IMG/VR virus record: IMGVR_UViG_3300044630_006441
Coordinates: 32,001-96,000 of that record
Source of the DNA: a virus
Strand: one strand, 5' to 3'
DNA: 64,000 nucleotides
The translations under genes were made by a program, and so were the position numbers. Positions 33,758 through 38,318 of this stretch are shown piece after piece. Numbering within the stretch: the stretch's first letter is position 1; every line of letters begins with the position of its first letter. A model generated the notes under the pieces. It made no database searches, was not told the origin of the DNA, and was given only the letters and a program-made list of their open reading frames with translations.

Positions 33758-34003
33758 ATGGCAGATGAAGAAGATGATGAGCGTTTACAGCAACTTAGGC
33801 GGGATATTAAGTGGGCAAGCGATCTTTTGTGGTTTGTCTGTTGTTGGGCGACTACCACGGGGGTCGGCTTGTTTTTGTTGTCGTTGATCGCTCAAAACTC
33901 TGGTGATTTGCTGGCGTCGGAAACTTTATGGTATAGTGGTTGGCACCTAATATCTGTTGGGTTGTGTGGGTTGTTAGTTTGGAAGTTGCAGGATTTCATT
34001 TAA
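33758..34003 (+). CDS. Two-helix membrane protein
   Basis: Two hydrophobic segments; AGGAGG RBS. Confidence 0.58.
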   Translation: MADEEDDERLQQLRRDIKWASDLLWFVCCWATTTGVGLFLLSLIAQNSGDLLASETLWYSGWHLISVGLCGLLVWKLQDFI

Positions 34004-34044
34004 AATCGGGTAGCAGCTACCTGAATTTGGGGGAGGGGTGTTTC

Positions 34045-34557
34045 ATGAATTGGTCAGAAATTTTTGAATACAATGACGGGAAACTTTTTTGGAAAGTTTC
34101 TTTTAGTAGTAGGATCTTAGTTGGATCTGAGGCTGGATTTTGTTCGGACCAATATCTTGCTGTTGTAATCCACAGAAAACGATTTTTTATTCACCGGATT
34201 ATATGGGAAATGCACATCGGGCCGATCCAGAATAAAATGTTTATCAAACACATTGATGGCGATCGAAAAAACAATAGGATCTCCAATTTAAGATTGGTGA
34301 CTCGCTCACAACTTCTATCTGATTTACATAAGCCAAGATACAGGATCGGTAGAACGTCAGAATTTCTTGGTGTCTCTTGGTGTGCCTCCAATCAAAGATG
34401 GACAGCTCAAATATGCTCAAATGGTAAACGCTATAGTTTAGGTAGTTTTACTTCAGAATTTGAAGCCAATAACGCTTACATACAAGCAAAATTAAAGCTT
34501 CACGATAAAATTGCCGATTTGTCTTTGCCACACCAACTGCTGGCTGAGGAGAAATAA
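34045..34557 (+). CDS. HNH homing endonuclease with AP2-like domain
   Basis: HRIIWEMH...KHIDGDRKNNRISNLR; TSEFLGVSW...WTAQI...LGSF..E.EA..AY. Confidence 0.88.
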   Translation: MNWSEIFEYNDGKLFWKVSFSSRILVGSEAGFCSDQYLAVVIHRKRFFIHRIIWEMHIGPIQNKMFIKHIDGDRKNNRISNLRLVTRSQLLSDLHKPRYRIGRTSEFLGVSWCASNQRWTAQICSNGKRYSLGSFTSEFEANNAYIQAKLKLHDKIADLSLPHQLLAEEK

Positions 34558-34757
34558 TGGAAGAGATTTTAAGTAGCCGAGATTTGGTTGATATTGTGAA
34601 GCTGCTGGCTATTTGTCTTGACAAAAGCTATCCAGCAGATCGAGAAATTGCTCGCAAAGCGATCATTGAGATTCTCGAAAATAAACCTGTGGTCGTTCGT
34701 GACCTAGACGGCAAAATATTAAATAACCCCACCGGCCCGCTGCCTGGGGGTGAGTGA
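34557..34757 (+). CDS. Hypothetical protein
   Basis: Coupled; ends in GPLPGGE. Confidence 0.55.
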   Translation: MEEILSSRDLVDIVKLLAICLDKSYPADREIARKAIIEILENKPVVVRDLDGKILNNPTGPLPGGE

Positions 34758-35071
34758 TGAGCGACAATTGGTCCACATGGCATTGCGAGAAGTGTCAGAT
34801 TGTTTTGCCGTGGAAAGACGGCATGGAAAACCTGAAGTGTGTTGGCTGTGAGATGAAGGCCGAGAACGCCAGGCTGCGTGACCAGCTTCGCTGGCGAGAT
34901 GCAAAAACTGAAAAGCCACAAGAAGGCGAATTGTGCCTGATTGTCATGCGAAATATGATTTGGCCTAATGTGATTCAGTATTCCGAGTTTGGTTCCTACC
35001 GTAGCCCTTGGGATACAGACTTTATTTTGCACTGGAGACCCGTTGGCCCGCTGCCTGGGGGTGAACGATGA
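34754..35071 (+). CDS. DUF551-like phage protein
   Basis: LRWRDAKTEKP...HWRPVGPLP. Confidence 0.65.
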   Translation: MMSDNWSTWHCEKCQIVLPWKDGMENLKCVGCEMKAENARLRDQLRWRDAKTEKPQEGELCLIVMRNMIWPNVIQYSEFGSYRSPWDTDFILHWRPVGPLPGGER

Positions 35072-35364
35072 CTGTGAGCTTGGTTGAAATGCTGGGTCTC
35101 GACTTGTTGTCAAAAGTGGGTAGCAAGATCGCTGAGCTAGAAACGGAGAATGTCGAGTTGCGTGAACAGCTCCGCTGGCGTAAGTGGCCGGAGGAGAAGC
35201 CGGAGGAAACTGGACGCAATCCATACACGGTGATTTTGGGCTGTGATTGCGTGCAAGCTACATTCTCATCTGGCAGATGGTTGATGGACGAGCGCATGAG
35301 CTTTGAAGATGTTGCTGACATGGTAACCCACTGGCGACCAATTGGCGAACTGCCGGGAGAGTGA
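35068..35364 (+). CDS. DUF551-like phage protein
   Basis: LRWRKWPEEKP...VTHWRPIGELP. Confidence 0.65.
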   Translation: MTVSLVEMLGLDLLSKVGSKIAELETENVELREQLRWRKWPEEKPEETGRNPYTVILGCDCVQATFSSGRWLMDERMSFEDVADMVTHWRPIGELPGE

Positions 35365-35573
35365 GCGATGAGCAATTGGTTCTGCCCAGACTGCGTTGGC
35401 TTGTTATTGCAATTGTTCAAATACTCCAGGAGTTGATTGTGGATAAGCCGCTACTATTTTTAATCGCTGGCTATTTTGGCGGGCAGATGTTAGCGTATTT
35501 GTTTTTGTTTGGAATGAGTTTTATACGAGTCAAAAAAAGAAGGATGAGTGATGAACGGCAACGATTTAGGTAG
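35361..35573 (+). CDS. Small membrane protein
   Basis: Two hydrophobic segments; GTGA overlap. Confidence 0.5.
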   Translation: MSDEQLVLPRLRWLVIAIVQILQELIVDKPLLFLIAGYFGGQMLAYLFLFGMSFIRVKKRRMSDERQRFR

Positions 35574-35786
35574 AGAAATAGCTCGACAAGCGTTCATCGT
35601 CGCAATGCTGATATTTGGCTCCGGAATTGCAGCTGGACTGTTGGCTCGATGGCTGTGGCCGATAGTCAAGGCGTGGATTCATTGGGCGACAGGGTGAAGC
35701 TGCCGGTACAACACATCTCGTTGAATTCCCCCATCGAATGAACTACTCAAGCTCGGGTGTATTTATTTGGGACATTTTAATCCCAA

Positions 35787-36326
35787 ATGAGGCTTCCGAT
35801 GTTCTGGTACTGGGTTGGTTACATTCTGACTGCCTGGCTCACCGCCGACTTTCTTACCGGCCTTTTTCACTGGTTTGAAGACCGGTACGCCAAAACCTCC
35901 TGGCCTATTTTCGGCCCCCTAGTTGCCGCCCCCAACGAGTTGCACCACAGCGAACCCCGCGCTTTTCTCCGTGGGAGCTACTGGGATCGCAACAACACCA
36001 CGATGATCCCTTGTCTTTTGATCGCAGCTTGGCTGGGATACCAGGAGCTTTGGTGGGGGATGTTAGTCGGTATTTTCGCCTCGCAGGCTAATCAACTCCA
36101 CGCTTGGACCCACCAGGGCAGCGTTCCCCGCCCGGTCAAAATCCTTCAGGAAACTGGCATCTTGCAGAATGCCCGCCACCACGCCCGACATCACATAAGT
36201 CCTTACGCCACACACTTTTGCGTCATGTCTAGTTGGCTGAACCCCCTGTTTGACTCCATCGGTTTCTGGCGCGGGCTGGAAAAAATCGTTTTTCTGCTGA
36301 TCCGGGTTCGACCCAAGCAAGGTTAA
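35787..36326 (+). CDS. CarF/TMEM189 (PEDS1, Kua)-family lipid desaturase
   Basis: ADFLTGLFHWFED, LHHSEP, NQLHAWTH, LQ..GIL..HHARHH, FCV.S.WLNP; hydrophobic helices. Confidence 0.88.
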   Translation: MRLPMFWYWVGYILTAWLTADFLTGLFHWFEDRYAKTSWPIFGPLVAAPNELHHSEPRAFLRGSYWDRNNTTMIPCLLIAAWLGYQELWWGMLVGIFASQANQLHAWTHQGSVPRPVKILQETGILQNARHHARHHISPYATHFCVMSSWLNPLFDSIGFWRGLEKIVFLLIRVRPKQG

Positions 36327-36333
36327 TGTAGTT

Positions 36334-36500
36334 GCCGGAATGATCTAAGCTGCCGGGGCCGCACCATCCCCTTCGGCGTGAGCCGACCGTGTGACAGGCC
36401 AGCAGCCATGGGCCAGGTAGTGTTTGAGTGCGGTTGAGGCGCTACCAGAAGATATCGGGCCGCATACTCGATAATGAGGGTTCGAGTCCCTCTTTCGGCG
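36334..36500 (+). ncRNA. tRNA-like structured RNA, about 167 nt
   Basis: Acceptor-like GCCGGAA/TTTCGGC followed by G; canonical T-arm GAGGG-TTCGAGT-CCCTC; structured interior of about 135 nt. Confidence 0.6.
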
Positions 36501-36525
36501 ATTGGGGTGGGTCAGGAACAGACCC

Positions 36526-37080
36526 ATGGTGGCTTTAGCCAAGATGGCAATCGTTTACCTGATCATTTTTGAGCGGGTATGGGTTCCCCCAACCGTAGTC
36601 CAAGAAAATCCTTTCGTCAGGAATCTGATCGCCCAGGTCGCCCAGGACTTGGAACTCTACGAATACCCTGAATGCAAAACGCTATGGAAGGCACGGGACG
36701 CCTACGAGCAAGCGAGGTTCTGTCGTGGGCGCCTAGCCGACATCCAGAAGTTCTTCTTCATCGACTTTGGGGTGGAGGGGTCAACTTGCTACATGCTCTG
36801 GGCAAACAAATACAACCGCCCGTTTGACGAGCTTTGCCGTCGCCGCATCCTGGAAAGCTATGGGGAGTCCAAGAGTTTCTGGATGTTTGTCCAGCGCGAG
36901 AACGATGAGATCTACAGGGTTTACGACTTGCTTGACGACATGCACCGGGCTATCCCACTCTATTGTAAGCGCCTGAAATTAGACCGCTTACGGCAGCTTC
37001 TGGGGGACGAGGCCTATGAGGCTGGATGGTTCCCCAACCCCACACCGACATGGCGTTTTTTGCCAGAGAATTCCAAATGA
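36526..37080 (+). CDS. Hypothetical protein with N-terminal hydrophobic segment
   Basis: Long ORF in + strand operon. Confidence 0.65.
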   Translation: MVALAKMAIVYLIIFERVWVPPTVVQENPFVRNLIAQVAQDLELYEYPECKTLWKARDAYEQARFCRGRLADIQKFFFIDFGVEGSTCYMLWANKYNRPFDELCRRRILESYGESKSFWMFVQRENDEIYRVYDLLDDMHRAIPLYCKRLKLDRLRQLLGDEAYEAGWFPNPTPTWRFLPENSK

Positions 37081-37638: not shown

Positions 37639-37665
37639 TCTTTGCCTGTTTTGAGATCCGGCTAT

Positions 37666-38130
37666 ATGACCGAAGAAATTCTTTGGCATGATTTTTTTGA
37701 GTACTCTGACGGATTCCTGTATTGGAAAGTCAGACCAAGCAATCGTGTTAGAATTGGTCAAAAAGCCGGATCTAAAACCTCCCATGGATATTTGATGGTT
37801 AATTTCCAGGGGAAGGGCGAAAGGCAGCCAAAATATGTGCATAGGATTGTCTGGGAAATGCACTTCGGTTTTATTCCGGAGGGAATGGTGATAGACCACA
37901 TTAATCGCAATAGGTCTGATAACAGGATCGAAAATTTGCGCGTGGTTACACCGTGTGAAAACACACAAACAGACGATGGAAAATGCGTTTATTTTGATGC
38001 TAGGAGATCTAACCAGAAAAAGCCTTGGTATGCCAGGTTTAAGCGGAACGGAAAAGGCTTCTTTAAGACTTTTGGGTCCGAACAAGAAGCTGAAAGTTGG
38101 GTTGCTTCTGTAAGAGCAGTTACAGCGTGA
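37666..38130 (+). CDS. HNH homing endonuclease
   Basis: YVHRIVWEMH...IDHINRNRSDNRIENLRVVT..EN. Confidence 0.9.
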   Translation: MTEEILWHDFFEYSDGFLYWKVRPSNRVRIGQKAGSKTSHGYLMVNFQGKGERQPKYVHRIVWEMHFGFIPEGMVIDHINRNRSDNRIENLRVVTPCENTQTDDGKCVYFDARRSNQKKPWYARFKRNGKGFFKTFGSEQEAESWVASVRAVTA

Positions 38131-38141
38131 CACCCATGAAA

Positions 38142-38243
38142 TTGTCGGCTGTGTTTGGGGTTGGTTTACCGACCGCAATAAGGACTGGAAACGGTCGACG
38201 CAGTCGATAATGCGCACGAAGGATTGAACTCCCTTTTGTGCGC
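38142..38243 (+). ncRNA. Candidate structured RNA immediately 5' of tRNA-Met
   Basis: 13-bp stem 38142-38154/38198-38210 enclosing two hairpins (one with GAAA loop), then hairpin 38212-38243. Confidence 0.45.
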
Positions 38244-38246
38244 TGG

Positions 38247-38318
38247 ACGGGAGTAGAGAAGTAGTATCTCGCCACCCTCATAAGGTGGAGATCGCTGGTG
38301 CGAATCCAGCCTCCCGCA
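38247..38318 (+). tRNA. tRNA with CAT anticodon (Met, or Ile2/fMet type); CCA not encoded
   Basis: Cloverleaf: ACGGGAG/CTCCCGC, D-stem GAGA/TCTC, CCACC-CTCATAA-GGTGG, GCTGG-TGCGAAT-CCAGC. Confidence 0.88.

What the first reader, a model, noticed from the sequence alone, without database searches (positions are those of the whole stretch)
36330..36503. tRNA-like RNA whose D and anticodon arms are replaced by a 135-nt structured insert
Seen: acceptor-like stem GCCGGAA (36334)/TTTCGGC (36493), extendable to 11 bp with G-U pairs, stacked on a perfect T-arm (36476-36492). The interior has a nested domain GCTGC/GCAGC capped by TCGGC-GTGA-GCCGA, then interleaved helices GGTAGTGTTT (36416)/AGGCGCTACC (36437) and GAGTGCGGTT (36426)/GGCCGCATACTC (36458), forming a pseudoknot or a switch. 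Established: tmRNA has this tRNA-like-domain plus pseudoknot plan but is about twice as long and has G3-U70 and A73, which are absent here. Inference: an undescribed tRNA mimic (mini-tmRNA-like, anticodon-nuclease decoy or Y-RNA-like).
Basis: partly seen in the sequence, partly recalled or inferred. Interest (0 to 1): 0.7.

Follow-up and report, generated by a model that had tools for sequence, protein, structure and literature searches.

The report
Phage tRNA mimic with locked anticodon
A lake-water phage carries a 167-base RNA gene built on a tRNA frame, with two extra hairpins in its D-loop, one of which pairs with the RNA's own anticodon loop; the same design turns up in the 'species 1' RNA of phage T4, whose job is still unknown.

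Summary
The element is real: a 167-nt RNA gene at 36334-36500 (+) in a 145-kb freshwater phage. It is not a tRNA that lost its D and anticodon arms. It keeps a full cloverleaf frame: a 7-bp acceptor stem, U8, a 4-bp D-stem, a 5-bp anticodon-type arm, a 4-nt variable loop and a T-arm. About 103 nt are inserted in the D-loop as two hairpins, P1 (variable) and H2 (conserved).

A diverged copy in a related 149-kb phage shows 10 base pairs changed on both sides, and 99% of pair positions stay paired. The H2 loop is complementary over 6 bp to the anticodon-type loop in both lineages, with one compensatory change. That loop lacks U33 and a purine at position 37, and it has 8 nt in the second lineage. 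The discriminator base differs, so ordinary decoding is unlikely.

ARAGORN and Rfam do not recognise the RNA. tmRNA, Y-RNA, intron and attP readings fail.

Phage T4 RNAC (species 1 RNA, function unknown) has the same plan, and its loop-loop pairing covaries twice across T4-like phages. Most likely this is a stable, non-decoding tRNA mimic; what it binds is inferred only. Only two sequence variants exist in the collections searched. The scan had noted this same stretch once more, but not on other DNA.

The parts
36321..36333 (+). 5' leader; GGTTAAT lies 6-7 nt before the first base of the RNA in every copy, including the copy that sits in another gene context
   Evidence: sequence comparison. 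GGTTAAT is not enriched genome-wide, and no sigma-70-type promoter was found. Its role, promoter -10 or RNase P leader, is open.
36334..36340 (+). acceptor stem, 5' strand (GCCGGAA)
   Evidence: Pairs with 36493-36499. In the homologue, 4:69 changes G:C to U:A, 5:68 changes G.U to G:C and 1:72 changes G:C to G.U. In L008, 3:70 changes C:G to U.G.
36341..36342 (+). U8 G9 connector
   Evidence: Invariant in both lineages (41 alignment).
36343..36346 (+). D-stem 5' strand (AUCU)
   Evidence: Complementary to AGAU at 36450-53. Invariant, so there is no covariation test. True tRNAs align to the model in this register.
36347..36348 (+). A14 A15 of the D-loop
   Evidence: Invariant. A15 can form the Levitt pair with U at 36475 (inference from tRNA rules).
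36349..36406 (+). P1: 58-nt irregular hairpin, first insert in the D-loop; base helix conserved, interior hypervariable
   Evidence: The base helix GCUGC/GCAGC is kept (one C:G to U.G change). The interior is unalignable with the 54-nt hairpin of the homologue.
36407..36415 (+). single-stranded linker CAUGGGCCA; candidate carrier of G18 G19
   Evidence: CA(U/A)GGGCCA is conserved in both lineages. The contact with the T-loop is inferred.
36416..36446 (+). H2: 10-bp hairpin with an 11-nt loop, second insert in the D-loop
   Evidence: 5 of 10 pairs changed on both sides between lineages.
36428..36433 (+). H2 loop strand GUGCGG of the loop-loop pairing (contains UGC)
   Evidence: Pairs with 36460-65. 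The homologue has GUGCGA with UCGCAC: G:C to A:U, plus G.U to G:C. Chance of 6 bp in shuffled loops is 0.03-0.08 per sequence.
36447..36449 (+). AGA, the end of the D-loop
   Evidence: Invariant. Bacterial tRNA-Leu D-loops also end in AGA.
36450..36453 (+). D-stem 3' strand (AGAU)
   Evidence: Invariant.
36454..36454 (+). A26 connector
   Evidence: Invariant.
36455..36471 (+). anticodon-type arm: 5-bp stem, 7-nt loop CCGCAUA (C33, GCA, U37)
   Evidence: Stem pairs 27:43 (U:A to C:G) and 31:39 (G:C to A:U) are compensatory. The loop is 8 nt (UCGCACAG) in the homologue.
36472..36475 (+). 4-nt variable loop UAAU
   Evidence: U(A/C)AU in the two lineages.
36476..36492 (+). T-arm GAGGG-UUCGAGU-CCCUC
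   Evidence: Weak Rfam tRNA hit of 17 bits. Pair 52:62 changes G:C to A:U. Identical to the T-arm of bacterial tRNA-Leu.
36493..36499 (+). acceptor stem, 3' strand (UUUCGGC)
36500..36500 (+). discriminator position (G here, U in the homologue); no CCA encoded

Best explanation
This is the gene for a stable, non-decoding tRNA look-alike.

Shown. A 167-nt RNA on the + strand keeps the whole tRNA frame: a tRNA-Leu-type acceptor stem and T-arm, U8, a D-stem, A14/A15, an anticodon-type arm and a 4-nt variable loop. Two hairpins sit in its D-loop, on either side of a conserved GGG. The second hairpin (H2, 10 bp) is as long as the D-stem plus anticodon stem beside it. Its loop is complementary over 6 bp to the anticodon-type loop in both lineages.

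Inferred. The free acceptor/T-arm end lets the host's tRNA enzymes (RNase P, a 3' trimming enzyme, the CCA-adding enzyme) cut the RNA out of the phage transcript and keep it stable. The locked, irregular anticodon loop keeps it out of normal decoding. The molecule acts by being mistaken for a tRNA.

It belongs to the same design class as phage T4 RNAC (species 1 RNA).
For: Structure. A homologue in a related complete phage (TerL 91% identical) scores 92 bits, E 3e-21. On the alignment, 99.2% of pair positions are paired and 10 pairs changed on both sides (0 of 500 shuffles reach this; slid controls give 0-2). Neighbouring proteins are only 50-80% identical, while the RNA's single-stranded core blocks are identical.

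tRNA frame. Real tRNAs align end to end to the model when the insert is skipped (L212 at 29 bits; T4 tRNA-Gly at 36 bits). With the two hairpins removed and the D-loop trimmed, ARAGORN at a relaxed threshold draws the cloverleaf I propose. The 24-nt T-arm plus 3' acceptor strand is identical to 31 bacterial tRNA-Leu genes.

Not a decoder. It has C33 and U37, a 7-nt loop versus an 8-nt loop in the homologue, and discriminator G versus U.

Loop-loop lock. There is 6-bp complementarity in both lineages, with one G:C to A:U change.

Separate module. The RNA sits after the desaturase gene here, and two genes before it in the relative.

Strand. G.U pairs in four helices fit only the + strand.

Expression hint. 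One river metatranscriptome contig matches 36344-36502 exactly, and sequencing adapter abuts 36344.

Parallel family. T4 RNAC has an acceptor stem, a T-arm, an anticodon-like hairpin and a D-region hairpin. The apical loop of that hairpin, UUGACG, is the complement of the anticodon-like loop, CGUCAA. All 48 pair positions of this contact are paired across 8 phages. There are compensatory changes in Yersinia phage TG1 (UUGAUG/CAUCAA) and Klebsiella phage kv_tblp5 (UUGGCG/CGCCAA).
Against: Only two sequence variants exist in all collections searched, so each covariation is a single event. The D-stem and the GGG linker never vary.

An alternative pairing of UCU (36344-46) with GGG (36410-12) is preferred by the energy model and cannot be excluded.

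The loop-loop complementarity is only modestly unlikely in a single sequence (p 0.03-0.08).

No processing, CCA addition, stability or binding partner has been observed.

The RNA-library contig runs 255 nt on into the next gene. It could be precursor or carried-over DNA, and contig depth cannot rank genes.

The long P1 arm at the tRNA elbow might hinder RNase P, which reads the elbow.

Neither phage encodes a CCA-adding enzyme, Ro or RtcB that would point to a pathway.

The function of the T4 analogue is itself unknown (PMC3014915, PMC9697503).
Confidence: 0.5

Rival explanations
1. It is an RNA-processing or 'punctuation' signal. The tRNA-shaped fold between genes exists mainly to recruit RNase P or RNase Z, which cut the polycistronic phage transcript and protect the new mRNA ends. 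The excised RNA itself would have no job.
For: The RNA starts 7 nt after the stop codon of the desaturase gene and ends 26 nt before the ATG of the next gene. The RNA-library contig continues from the RNA into the downstream gene. T4 RNAC is likewise cut from a long tRNA-cluster transcript (PMC2330249).
Against: A bare acceptor/T-arm minihelix would be enough for that. Here an elaborate H2 hairpin, its loop-loop contact and about 40 invariant single-stranded bases are conserved while flanking proteins drift to 50-80% identity. In the relative the RNA lies in another gene context, with a 164-nt spacer before the next gene.
Confidence: 0.15
2. The tRNA frame is a stabilising scaffold, and the variable P1 hairpin is the working part: a small regulatory RNA or a protein- or ligand-binding arm that differs between phage lineages.
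For: The P1 interior is completely rewritten between lineages, yet it keeps its place, its base helix and its length (58 versus 54 nt). tRNA scaffolds are known to stabilise inserted RNAs (established in RNA engineering, e.g. PMC7590224).
Against: No significant antisense target for either P1 was found in the phage genome; all matches were at chance level. The most conserved parts are H2 and the core, not P1.
Confidence: 0.1
3. It is a working, aminoacylated tRNA (anticodon GCA, Cys) with expansion arms. The loop-loop lock opens on the ribosome, or acts as a regulated switch.
For: The full cloverleaf spacing is kept, with GCA at positions 34-36 in both lineages. The relative has U73, the cysteine discriminator. 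The scan has seen other conserved phage tRNAs with extra hairpins.
Against: It has C33 instead of the near-universal U33, and a pyrimidine at position 37. The loop is 8 nt in the relative. The discriminator is G in the window lineage. The acceptor stem and T-arm are of the Leu type. The Rfam tRNA score of 17 bits is below the cut-off of 29. The six paired loop bases include the whole anticodon.
Confidence: 0.08
4. It is a tRNA gene interrupted by intron-like inserts that are removed from the D-loop after transcription.
For: The inserts sit exactly in the two length-variable parts of the D-loop. Removing them in silico gives a cloverleaf.
Against: No group I or other ribozyme family matches, even at E up to 10. 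At about 100 nt the insert is shorter than any self-splicing intron I know of. Bacterial tRNA introns lie in the anticodon loop. Covariation between H2 and the anticodon-type loop shows H2 works within the same molecule. The remaining anticodon loop would still be irregular.
Confidence: 0.03
5. It is a small tmRNA-like or Y-RNA-like (YrlA) molecule.
For: The 5' and 3' ends pair next to a T-arm, as in tmRNA. tRNA-like modules occur in YrlA (PMC4201824).
Against: ARAGORN finds no tmRNA. There is no Rfam hit, no G3:U70, and no reading frame shared by the two lineages. The anticodon-type arm is a closed hairpin, not a long helix leading to pseudoknots. Neither phage has a Ro/TROVE gene. In YrlA the RNA ends form the Ro-binding stem, not the acceptor stem.
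Confidence: 0.02
6. It is a decayed tRNA remnant, or a phage attachment site that copies the 3' part of a host tRNA-Leu.
For: The last 24 nt are identical to many bacterial tRNA-Leu genes. Another viral contig (L006) carries such a hybrid tRNA-Leu.
Against: Compensatory changes run through all helices, including the acceptor 5' strand 160 nt away. The homologue's acceptor stem and T-arm have diverged from the tRNA-Leu sequence yet still pair.
Confidence: 0.01

Closest known systems
Phage T4 RNAC (species 1 RNA, rnaC; NC_000866 70908-71046), a stable RNA from the T4 tRNA gene cluster with unknown function
   Same: Phage-encoded, about 140-170 nt, and near tRNA genes and homing-endonuclease genes. 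The 5' and 3' ends form an acceptor-type stem next to a canonical T-arm. There is an anticodon-like hairpin and a large hairpin in the D region. The loop of a D-region hairpin is complementary to the anticodon-like loop, and the pairing is kept by compensatory changes.
   Different: No detectable sequence homology: my model gives 9.3 bits, E 0.09, on the T-arm only. RNAC has one D-region hairpin that does the kissing; here there are two (P1 variable, H2 kissing). The RNAC acceptor stem has two U.U mismatches in most phages. It has a 3-bp D-like stem without a U8 connector, a 6-nt loop and a longer anticodon-like stem. I did not find the loop-loop pairing of RNAC mentioned in the papers I could search.
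Bacterial tRNA-Leu (class II tRNA)
   Same: The acceptor stem (GCCGGAAUG versus GCCGAAAUG) and the 24-nt T-arm plus 3' strand are the same as in 31 tRNA-Leu genes. The D-loop begins AA, has GG in the middle and ends AGA in both.
   Different: The discriminator is G or U, not A73. There is no long variable arm and no Leu anticodon. The D-loop is 103 nt. The Rfam tRNA score is below the cut-off.
T-box riboswitch Stem I bound to tRNA
   Same: A helix runs alongside the tRNA body, and a codon-like loop pairs with the anticodon (here UGC in the H2 loop with GCA). This resemblance is from established knowledge only.
   Different: Here both partners are in one molecule. There is no T-box sequence, no antiterminator and no Rfam T-box hit.
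tmRNA
   Same: An acceptor stem plus a T-arm formed by the two RNA ends, with extra structured RNA in between.
   Different: About half the size. No G3:U70, no tag reading frame and no pseudoknot series. A closed anticodon-type hairpin is present. Not called by ARAGORN or Rfam.
YrlA-type bacterial Y RNAs (PMC4201824)
   Same: A non-coding RNA with a tRNA-like module; also found in phages.
   Different: In YrlA the RNA ends form the Ro-binding stem and the tRNA-like part is internal. No Ro/TROVE gene is present here, and there is no Rfam hit.

Membership tests
tRNA (Rfam RF00005 / ARAGORN) | Score at or above the family cut-off, or a call by a tRNA finder | tested here: not met
   17.1 bits against a cut-off of 29, for the 3' part only. 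ARAGORN made no call. Its intron mode gave a spurious 1829-nt 'intron' spanning protein genes.
tRNA (Rfam RF00005 / ARAGORN) | 7-bp acceptor stem stacked on a 5-bp T-stem with a UUCRANY T-loop | tested here: met
   with compensatory changes in both stems.
tRNA (Rfam RF00005 / ARAGORN) | D-arm: 3-4-bp stem with a loop of about 7-11 nt carrying A14, G18 G19 and A21 | tested here: inconclusive
   A complementary 4-bp stem, A14/A15, GGG and a terminal AGA are present and invariant. However, the loop is 103 nt, the stem has no covariation, and an alternative pairing exists.
tRNA (Rfam RF00005 / ARAGORN) | 7-nt anticodon loop with U33 and a purine at position 37 | tested here: not met
   CCGCAUA (C33, U37) here, and the 8-nt UCGCACAG in the homologue.
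tRNA (Rfam RF00005 / ARAGORN) | Aminoacylation and use in translation | not testable with these tools
   The discriminator is not conserved (G versus U), which argues against a fixed identity.
tmRNA | G3:U70, a tag reading frame with a resume codon, pseudoknots, and a tmRNA finder or Rfam call | tested here: not met
   C3:G70 (U3.G70 in L008). No frame is shared by the two lineages. No ARAGORN or Rfam call.
YrlA / Y RNA | A Ro-binding stem formed by the RNA ends, an Rsr/Ro60 partner, and an Rfam match | tested here: not met
   No Rfam hit at E up to 10. No TROVE domain in either phage. A host-encoded Ro was not testable.
Intron-containing tRNA (group I) | A self-splicing intron fold inserted in the anticodon loop | tested here: not met
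   No intron or ribozyme family matches at E up to 10. The insert lies in the D-loop and is about 103 nt.
T4 RNAC (species 1 RNA) family | Sequence or profile homology to rnaC | tested here: not met
   My model scores 9.3 bits, E 0.09, on rnaC. blastn searches with rnaC return only T4-like phages.
T4 RNAC (species 1 RNA) family | Architecture: acceptor stem + T-arm + anticodon-like hairpin whose loop pairs with the loop of a D-region hairpin | tested here: met
   This RNA. RNAC.
T4 RNAC (species 1 RNA) family | A stable RNA excised from a tRNA-cluster transcript | tested here: inconclusive
   One metatranscriptome contig covers 36344-36502, with adapter at 36344, but it runs on downstream. tRNA-Met lies 1.75 kb downstream on the same strand.

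The most novel reading that the evidence does not exclude
Phages of unrelated lineages (T4-like coliphages and this freshwater phage) make a class of 'self-decoded' tRNA mimics. Each has a tRNA body that carries its own codon-like loop already paired to its anticodon loop. Such a molecule would present a ready-made codon-anticodon helix. It could act on the ribosome or on tRNA-directed immune nucleases in a way no known RNA does. This would also give T4 RNAC, unexplained since the 1970s, a testable mechanism.
Probability: 0.15. Interest if true: 0.85.

Novelty: new variant of a known kind. Interest (0 to 1): 0.64.

Why it matters
Phage tRNA genes are now seen as weapons against host tRNA-cleaving defences. 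Phage RNAs that are tRNA-shaped but do not decode are almost unstudied: T4 RNAC and RNAD have been called 'function unknown' for decades (PMC3014915, PMC9697503).

This element shows that a tRNA frame can carry about 100 nt in its D-loop and lock its own anticodon loop. I could not find this layout in reviews of non-canonical tRNAs (PMC7609411). The same locking principle holds in T4 RNAC, where it is supported by two compensatory changes.

That link makes an old open question testable in T4 and E. coli, a tractable system, through loop mutants and compensatory double mutants. It also defines a search pattern for more such RNAs, which standard tRNA finders miss.

Tried and rejected
- Exact 14-mer scan for the H2 loop in viral contigs: about 115 chance hits and only the known copies.
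- Gapped-pattern scans of viral contigs, metagenome contigs and prokaryote genomes: no third variant. L213, L215, L218 and L220 are chance matches in coding or AT-rich DNA.
- Covariance models R1 and R2 over 100 related viral records found by terminase similarity: one diverged homologue only. The complete 141.8-kb relative with 60% TerL identity has none. A sub-threshold tRNA hit in G015 is coding sequence.
- Antisense targets of P1 in the phage genome: chance-level matches only.
- GGTTAAT as a repeated phage promoter: not enriched. The sigma-70 promoter scan found none, and the one terminator-like site lies inside the desaturase gene.
- Phage-encoded CCA-adding enzyme, Ro/TROVE and RtcB: absent in both phages.
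- Three of the four RNA runs laid showed contigs only over the desaturase gene and none over the RNA. This says nothing either way.
- Contig depth (62.8 for the RNA contig, 3.2 for the desaturase contig) was not used as evidence. The two contigs come from different strains, and the tool warns against ranking genes by depth.
- An 11-nt tetraloop-receptor reading of CUAAG...CAUGG: one extra base, and U to A in the homologue. Dropped.
- Host inference from the tRNA-Leu-like 24-mer: it occurs in many phyla and is not informative.
- Literature searches found no description of this layout.

Full report
**Where it is.** The window is bases 32001-96000 of a 145,196-bp, 97%-complete viral record. Most of the public runs that hold the stretch are lake-water or freshwater metagenomes. 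Around the finding, small genes are packed on the + strand. A lipid-desaturase gene ends at 36326 (Pfam Lipid_desat, E 4e-40). An unknown 192-codon frame follows at 36502 (likely ATG at 36527). HNH homing-endonuclease genes lie at 33940-34557 and 37642-38130. The only tRNA gene that finders report is tRNA-Met at 38247-38318.

**Standard finders.** ARAGORN finds nothing at 36330-36503, and neither does Rfam at gathering thresholds. A permissive Rfam scan gives only a 17-bit tRNA hit over 36444-36500 (cut-off 29) and two T-arm look-alikes. ARAGORN in intron mode reports a tRNA-Ala with an 1829-nt 'intron' that spans protein genes; this is an artefact. The predicted folding energy is not unusual (z -0.98).

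**Reading the sequence on a tRNA ruler.** The order and spacing of parts are:
- acceptor strand 36334-40, pairing with 36493-99 over 7 bp
- U8 G9
- AUCU (36343-46), complementary to AGAU (36450-53)
- A14 A15
- a 58-nt hairpin, P1 (36349-36406)
- a linker CAUGGGCCA
- a 10-bp hairpin, H2 (36416-46), with an 11-nt loop
- AGA
- one base (A26)
- a 5-bp stem with a 7-nt loop CCGCAUA (36455-71)
- a 4-nt variable loop
- a T-arm with a UUCGAGU loop
- a discriminator G, with no CCA encoded

So the D and anticodon arms are not replaced. About 103 nt sit inside the D-loop as two hairpins flanking a GGG. These are the places where ordinary D-loops vary in length (established tRNA knowledge; the assignment of G18 G19 is inferred).

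**Relatives.** Exact and gapped pattern scans of IMG/VR, JGI metagenomes and GTDB genomes were run, together with covariance-model searches of 100 related viral records found by terminase similarity. They find just two sequence types. The window type recurs almost unchanged in seven viral and three metagenome contigs. Its flanks differ, and one copy has C3 changed to U, which keeps a U.G pair. The second type lies in a complete 149-kb phage whose terminase is 91% identical (92 bits, E 3e-21). Proteins around the RNA are 50-80% identical between the two phages. The RNA has also moved: it directly follows the desaturase gene here, and lies two genes before it there. It therefore behaves as a separate module.

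**Covariation.** On the two-lineage alignment, 99.2% of pair positions are paired and 10 pairs differ on both sides. No shuffle out of 500 reaches this, and sliding the partners by 1-3 columns gives 0-2. Changes on both sides occur in the acceptor stem (one pair, plus three one-sided changes that keep pairing), the T-stem (one pair), the anticodon-type stem (two pairs), H2 (five of ten pairs) and the loop-loop contact (one pair). The P1 base helix is kept, but its interior is unrelated sequence of similar length (58 versus 54 nt). The D-stem, U8 G9, A14 A15, the GGGCCA linker, AGA and A26 are identical in both. That argues for constraint but cannot test the D-stem pairing. The energy model prefers pairing UCU with GGG instead, so this one helix stays open. 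G.U pairs in four helices fit only the + strand.

**The lock.** The H2 loop GUGCGG (36428-33) can pair with CCGCAU (36460-65) of the anticodon-type loop. In the second lineage the loops read GUGCGA and UCGCAC. One pair has changed G:C to A:U and one G.U to G:C, while the unpaired loop bases changed freely and the anticodon-type loop grew to 8 nt. In shuffled loops, a 6-bp match arises in 3-8% of trials per sequence. The single-sequence evidence is therefore modest, and the argument rests on retention plus compensation. H2 has 10 bp. That equals the D-stem (4) plus A26 (1) plus the anticodon stem (5), so its loop can reach the anticodon loop by lying alongside the tRNA body (inference).

**tRNA relationship.** True tRNAs align to my model from end to end once the insert is skipped. 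With both hairpins removed and the D-loop trimmed, ARAGORN at a relaxed threshold draws the proposed cloverleaf with GCA at 34-36 (illustration only). The last 24 nt equal the T-arm and 3' acceptor strand of 31 bacterial tRNA-Leu genes from many phyla. Their 5' ends read GCCGAAAUG against GCCGGAAUG here, and their D-loops also start AA and end AGA. The frame thus looks derived from tRNA-Leu. However, the discriminator is G or U rather than A. Position 33 is C, position 37 is a pyrimidine, and the loop length is not fixed. These features argue against ordinary charging and decoding.

**Expression.** One river metatranscriptome contig matches 36344-36502 without a mismatch. Sequencing adapter abuts 36344, about 10 nt inside the predicted 5' end. 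This is what short inserts from a defined RNA end would give. The contig also runs 255 nt into the downstream gene of that strain. It is a hint of transcription on the + strand, not proof. DNA carry-over is not excluded, and contig depth cannot be used.

**Known families.** tmRNA, YrlA/Y RNA, group I introns and an attP or tRNA remnant each fail on defining features (see the membership table).

**The closest known thing is phage T4 RNAC.** RNAC (species 1 RNA) is annotated in the T4 tRNA cluster next to the SegB homing endonuclease. It is described as of unknown role (PMC3014915, PMC9697503) and as made from the 1.75-kb tRNA-cluster transcript (PMC2330249). Its fold shows an acceptor-type stem, a canonical T-arm, an anticodon-like hairpin with the loop CGUCAA, and a 60-nt hairpin in the D region with UUGACG at its tip, the exact complement. 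I collected diverged RNAC genes from T4-like phages. The whole fold covaries, with 23 pairs changed on both sides (0 of 500 shuffles). The loop-loop contact is paired in all 48 pair positions. Compensatory changes occur in Yersinia phage TG1 (UUGAUG/CAUCAA) and Klebsiella phage kv_tblp5 (UUGGCG/CGCCAA). The contact is retained in two phages whose large hairpin is otherwise rewritten, and it is reduced to 4 bp in Pectobacterium phage PM2. There is no detectable sequence homology between RNAC and the lake-phage RNA. This is a shared design, not shown common descent.

**Interpretation.** The structure and its conservation are well supported. I commit to a stable, non-decoding tRNA look-alike. It would be cut out by tRNA-processing enzymes through its free acceptor/T-arm end. 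Its anticodon-type loop is locked by H2, and it acts by engaging a tRNA-recognising protein. The current literature on anti-phage tRNases (PMC10264068, PMC13056530, PMC12851939) makes a defence enzyme a reasonable candidate. Nothing here identifies the partner, so this step is inference. Rivals are a processing signal, a scaffold for P1, a working expanded tRNA-Cys, and an intron-bearing tRNA; they are listed with odds.

**Limits.** The main limits are the two-variant sample, the untested D-stem and the lack of direct RNA data.

Noticed in passing
L224:2909-3047 (-) = phage T4 rnaC; alignments A6 and A7: T4 RNAC (species 1 RNA) has a loop-loop pairing, UUGACG with CGUCAA, between its D-region hairpin and its anticodon-like loop. 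Compensatory changes keep it in Yersinia phage TG1 and Klebsiella phage kv_tblp5. rnaC homologues occur in about 750 phage records, mostly unannotated or called 'hypothetical protein' or 'tRNA-Lys'.
   Followed up: yes
window 38141-38243 (+), just upstream of tRNA-Met 38247-38318: A structured stretch abuts tRNA-Met. It is partly conserved in the related phage G002, which lacks 21 nt covering the GGACUGGAAACGGUC hairpin. Its role is unknown, possibly a pre-tRNA leader structure.
   Followed up: partly
window 38247-38318 (+): The phage tRNA-Met(CAU) has an A1:C72 mismatch and a UGCGAAU T-loop, with no CCA encoded. The relative's copy keeps the mismatch at 1:72 (A1:A72).
   Followed up: no
window 35787-36326 (+): A phage-encoded 179-aa lipid desaturase (Pfam PF10520, E 4e-40), an unusual auxiliary gene. 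It is 75% identical in the relative. River metatranscriptome contigs cover it at 96-98% identity.
   Followed up: partly
window 33940-34557 and 37642-38130 (+): Two HNH (HNH_3, one with an AP2 domain) homing-endonuclease genes flank the region holding the tRNA-like RNA and tRNA-Met. The RNA occupies different positions in the two phages. This resembles the SegB endonuclease in the T4 tRNA cluster (PMC2330249).
   Followed up: partly
L006:6441-6527 (-): An unrelated viral contig carries a tRNA-Leu(CAA) whose 3' two-thirds match Luteibacter-type tRNA-Leu exactly, but whose 5' acceptor strand pairs poorly. It looks like an integration-site hybrid.
   Followed up: no
G000 66576-68500 (window 34576-36500): ARAGORN in intron mode calls a false tRNA-Ala(CGC) with an 1829-nt intron, borrowing the T-arm and acceptor 3' strand of this RNA. 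This is a trap for automatic annotation.
   Followed up: yes
L211:1440-1500 (-), downstream of the homologue in G002: The homologue is followed by a U-run (GGUUUUUCUAAAUU). About 40 nt further on there is a TTGACA-containing stretch before the next gene, so in that phage the RNA may be its own transcription unit.
   Followed up: no
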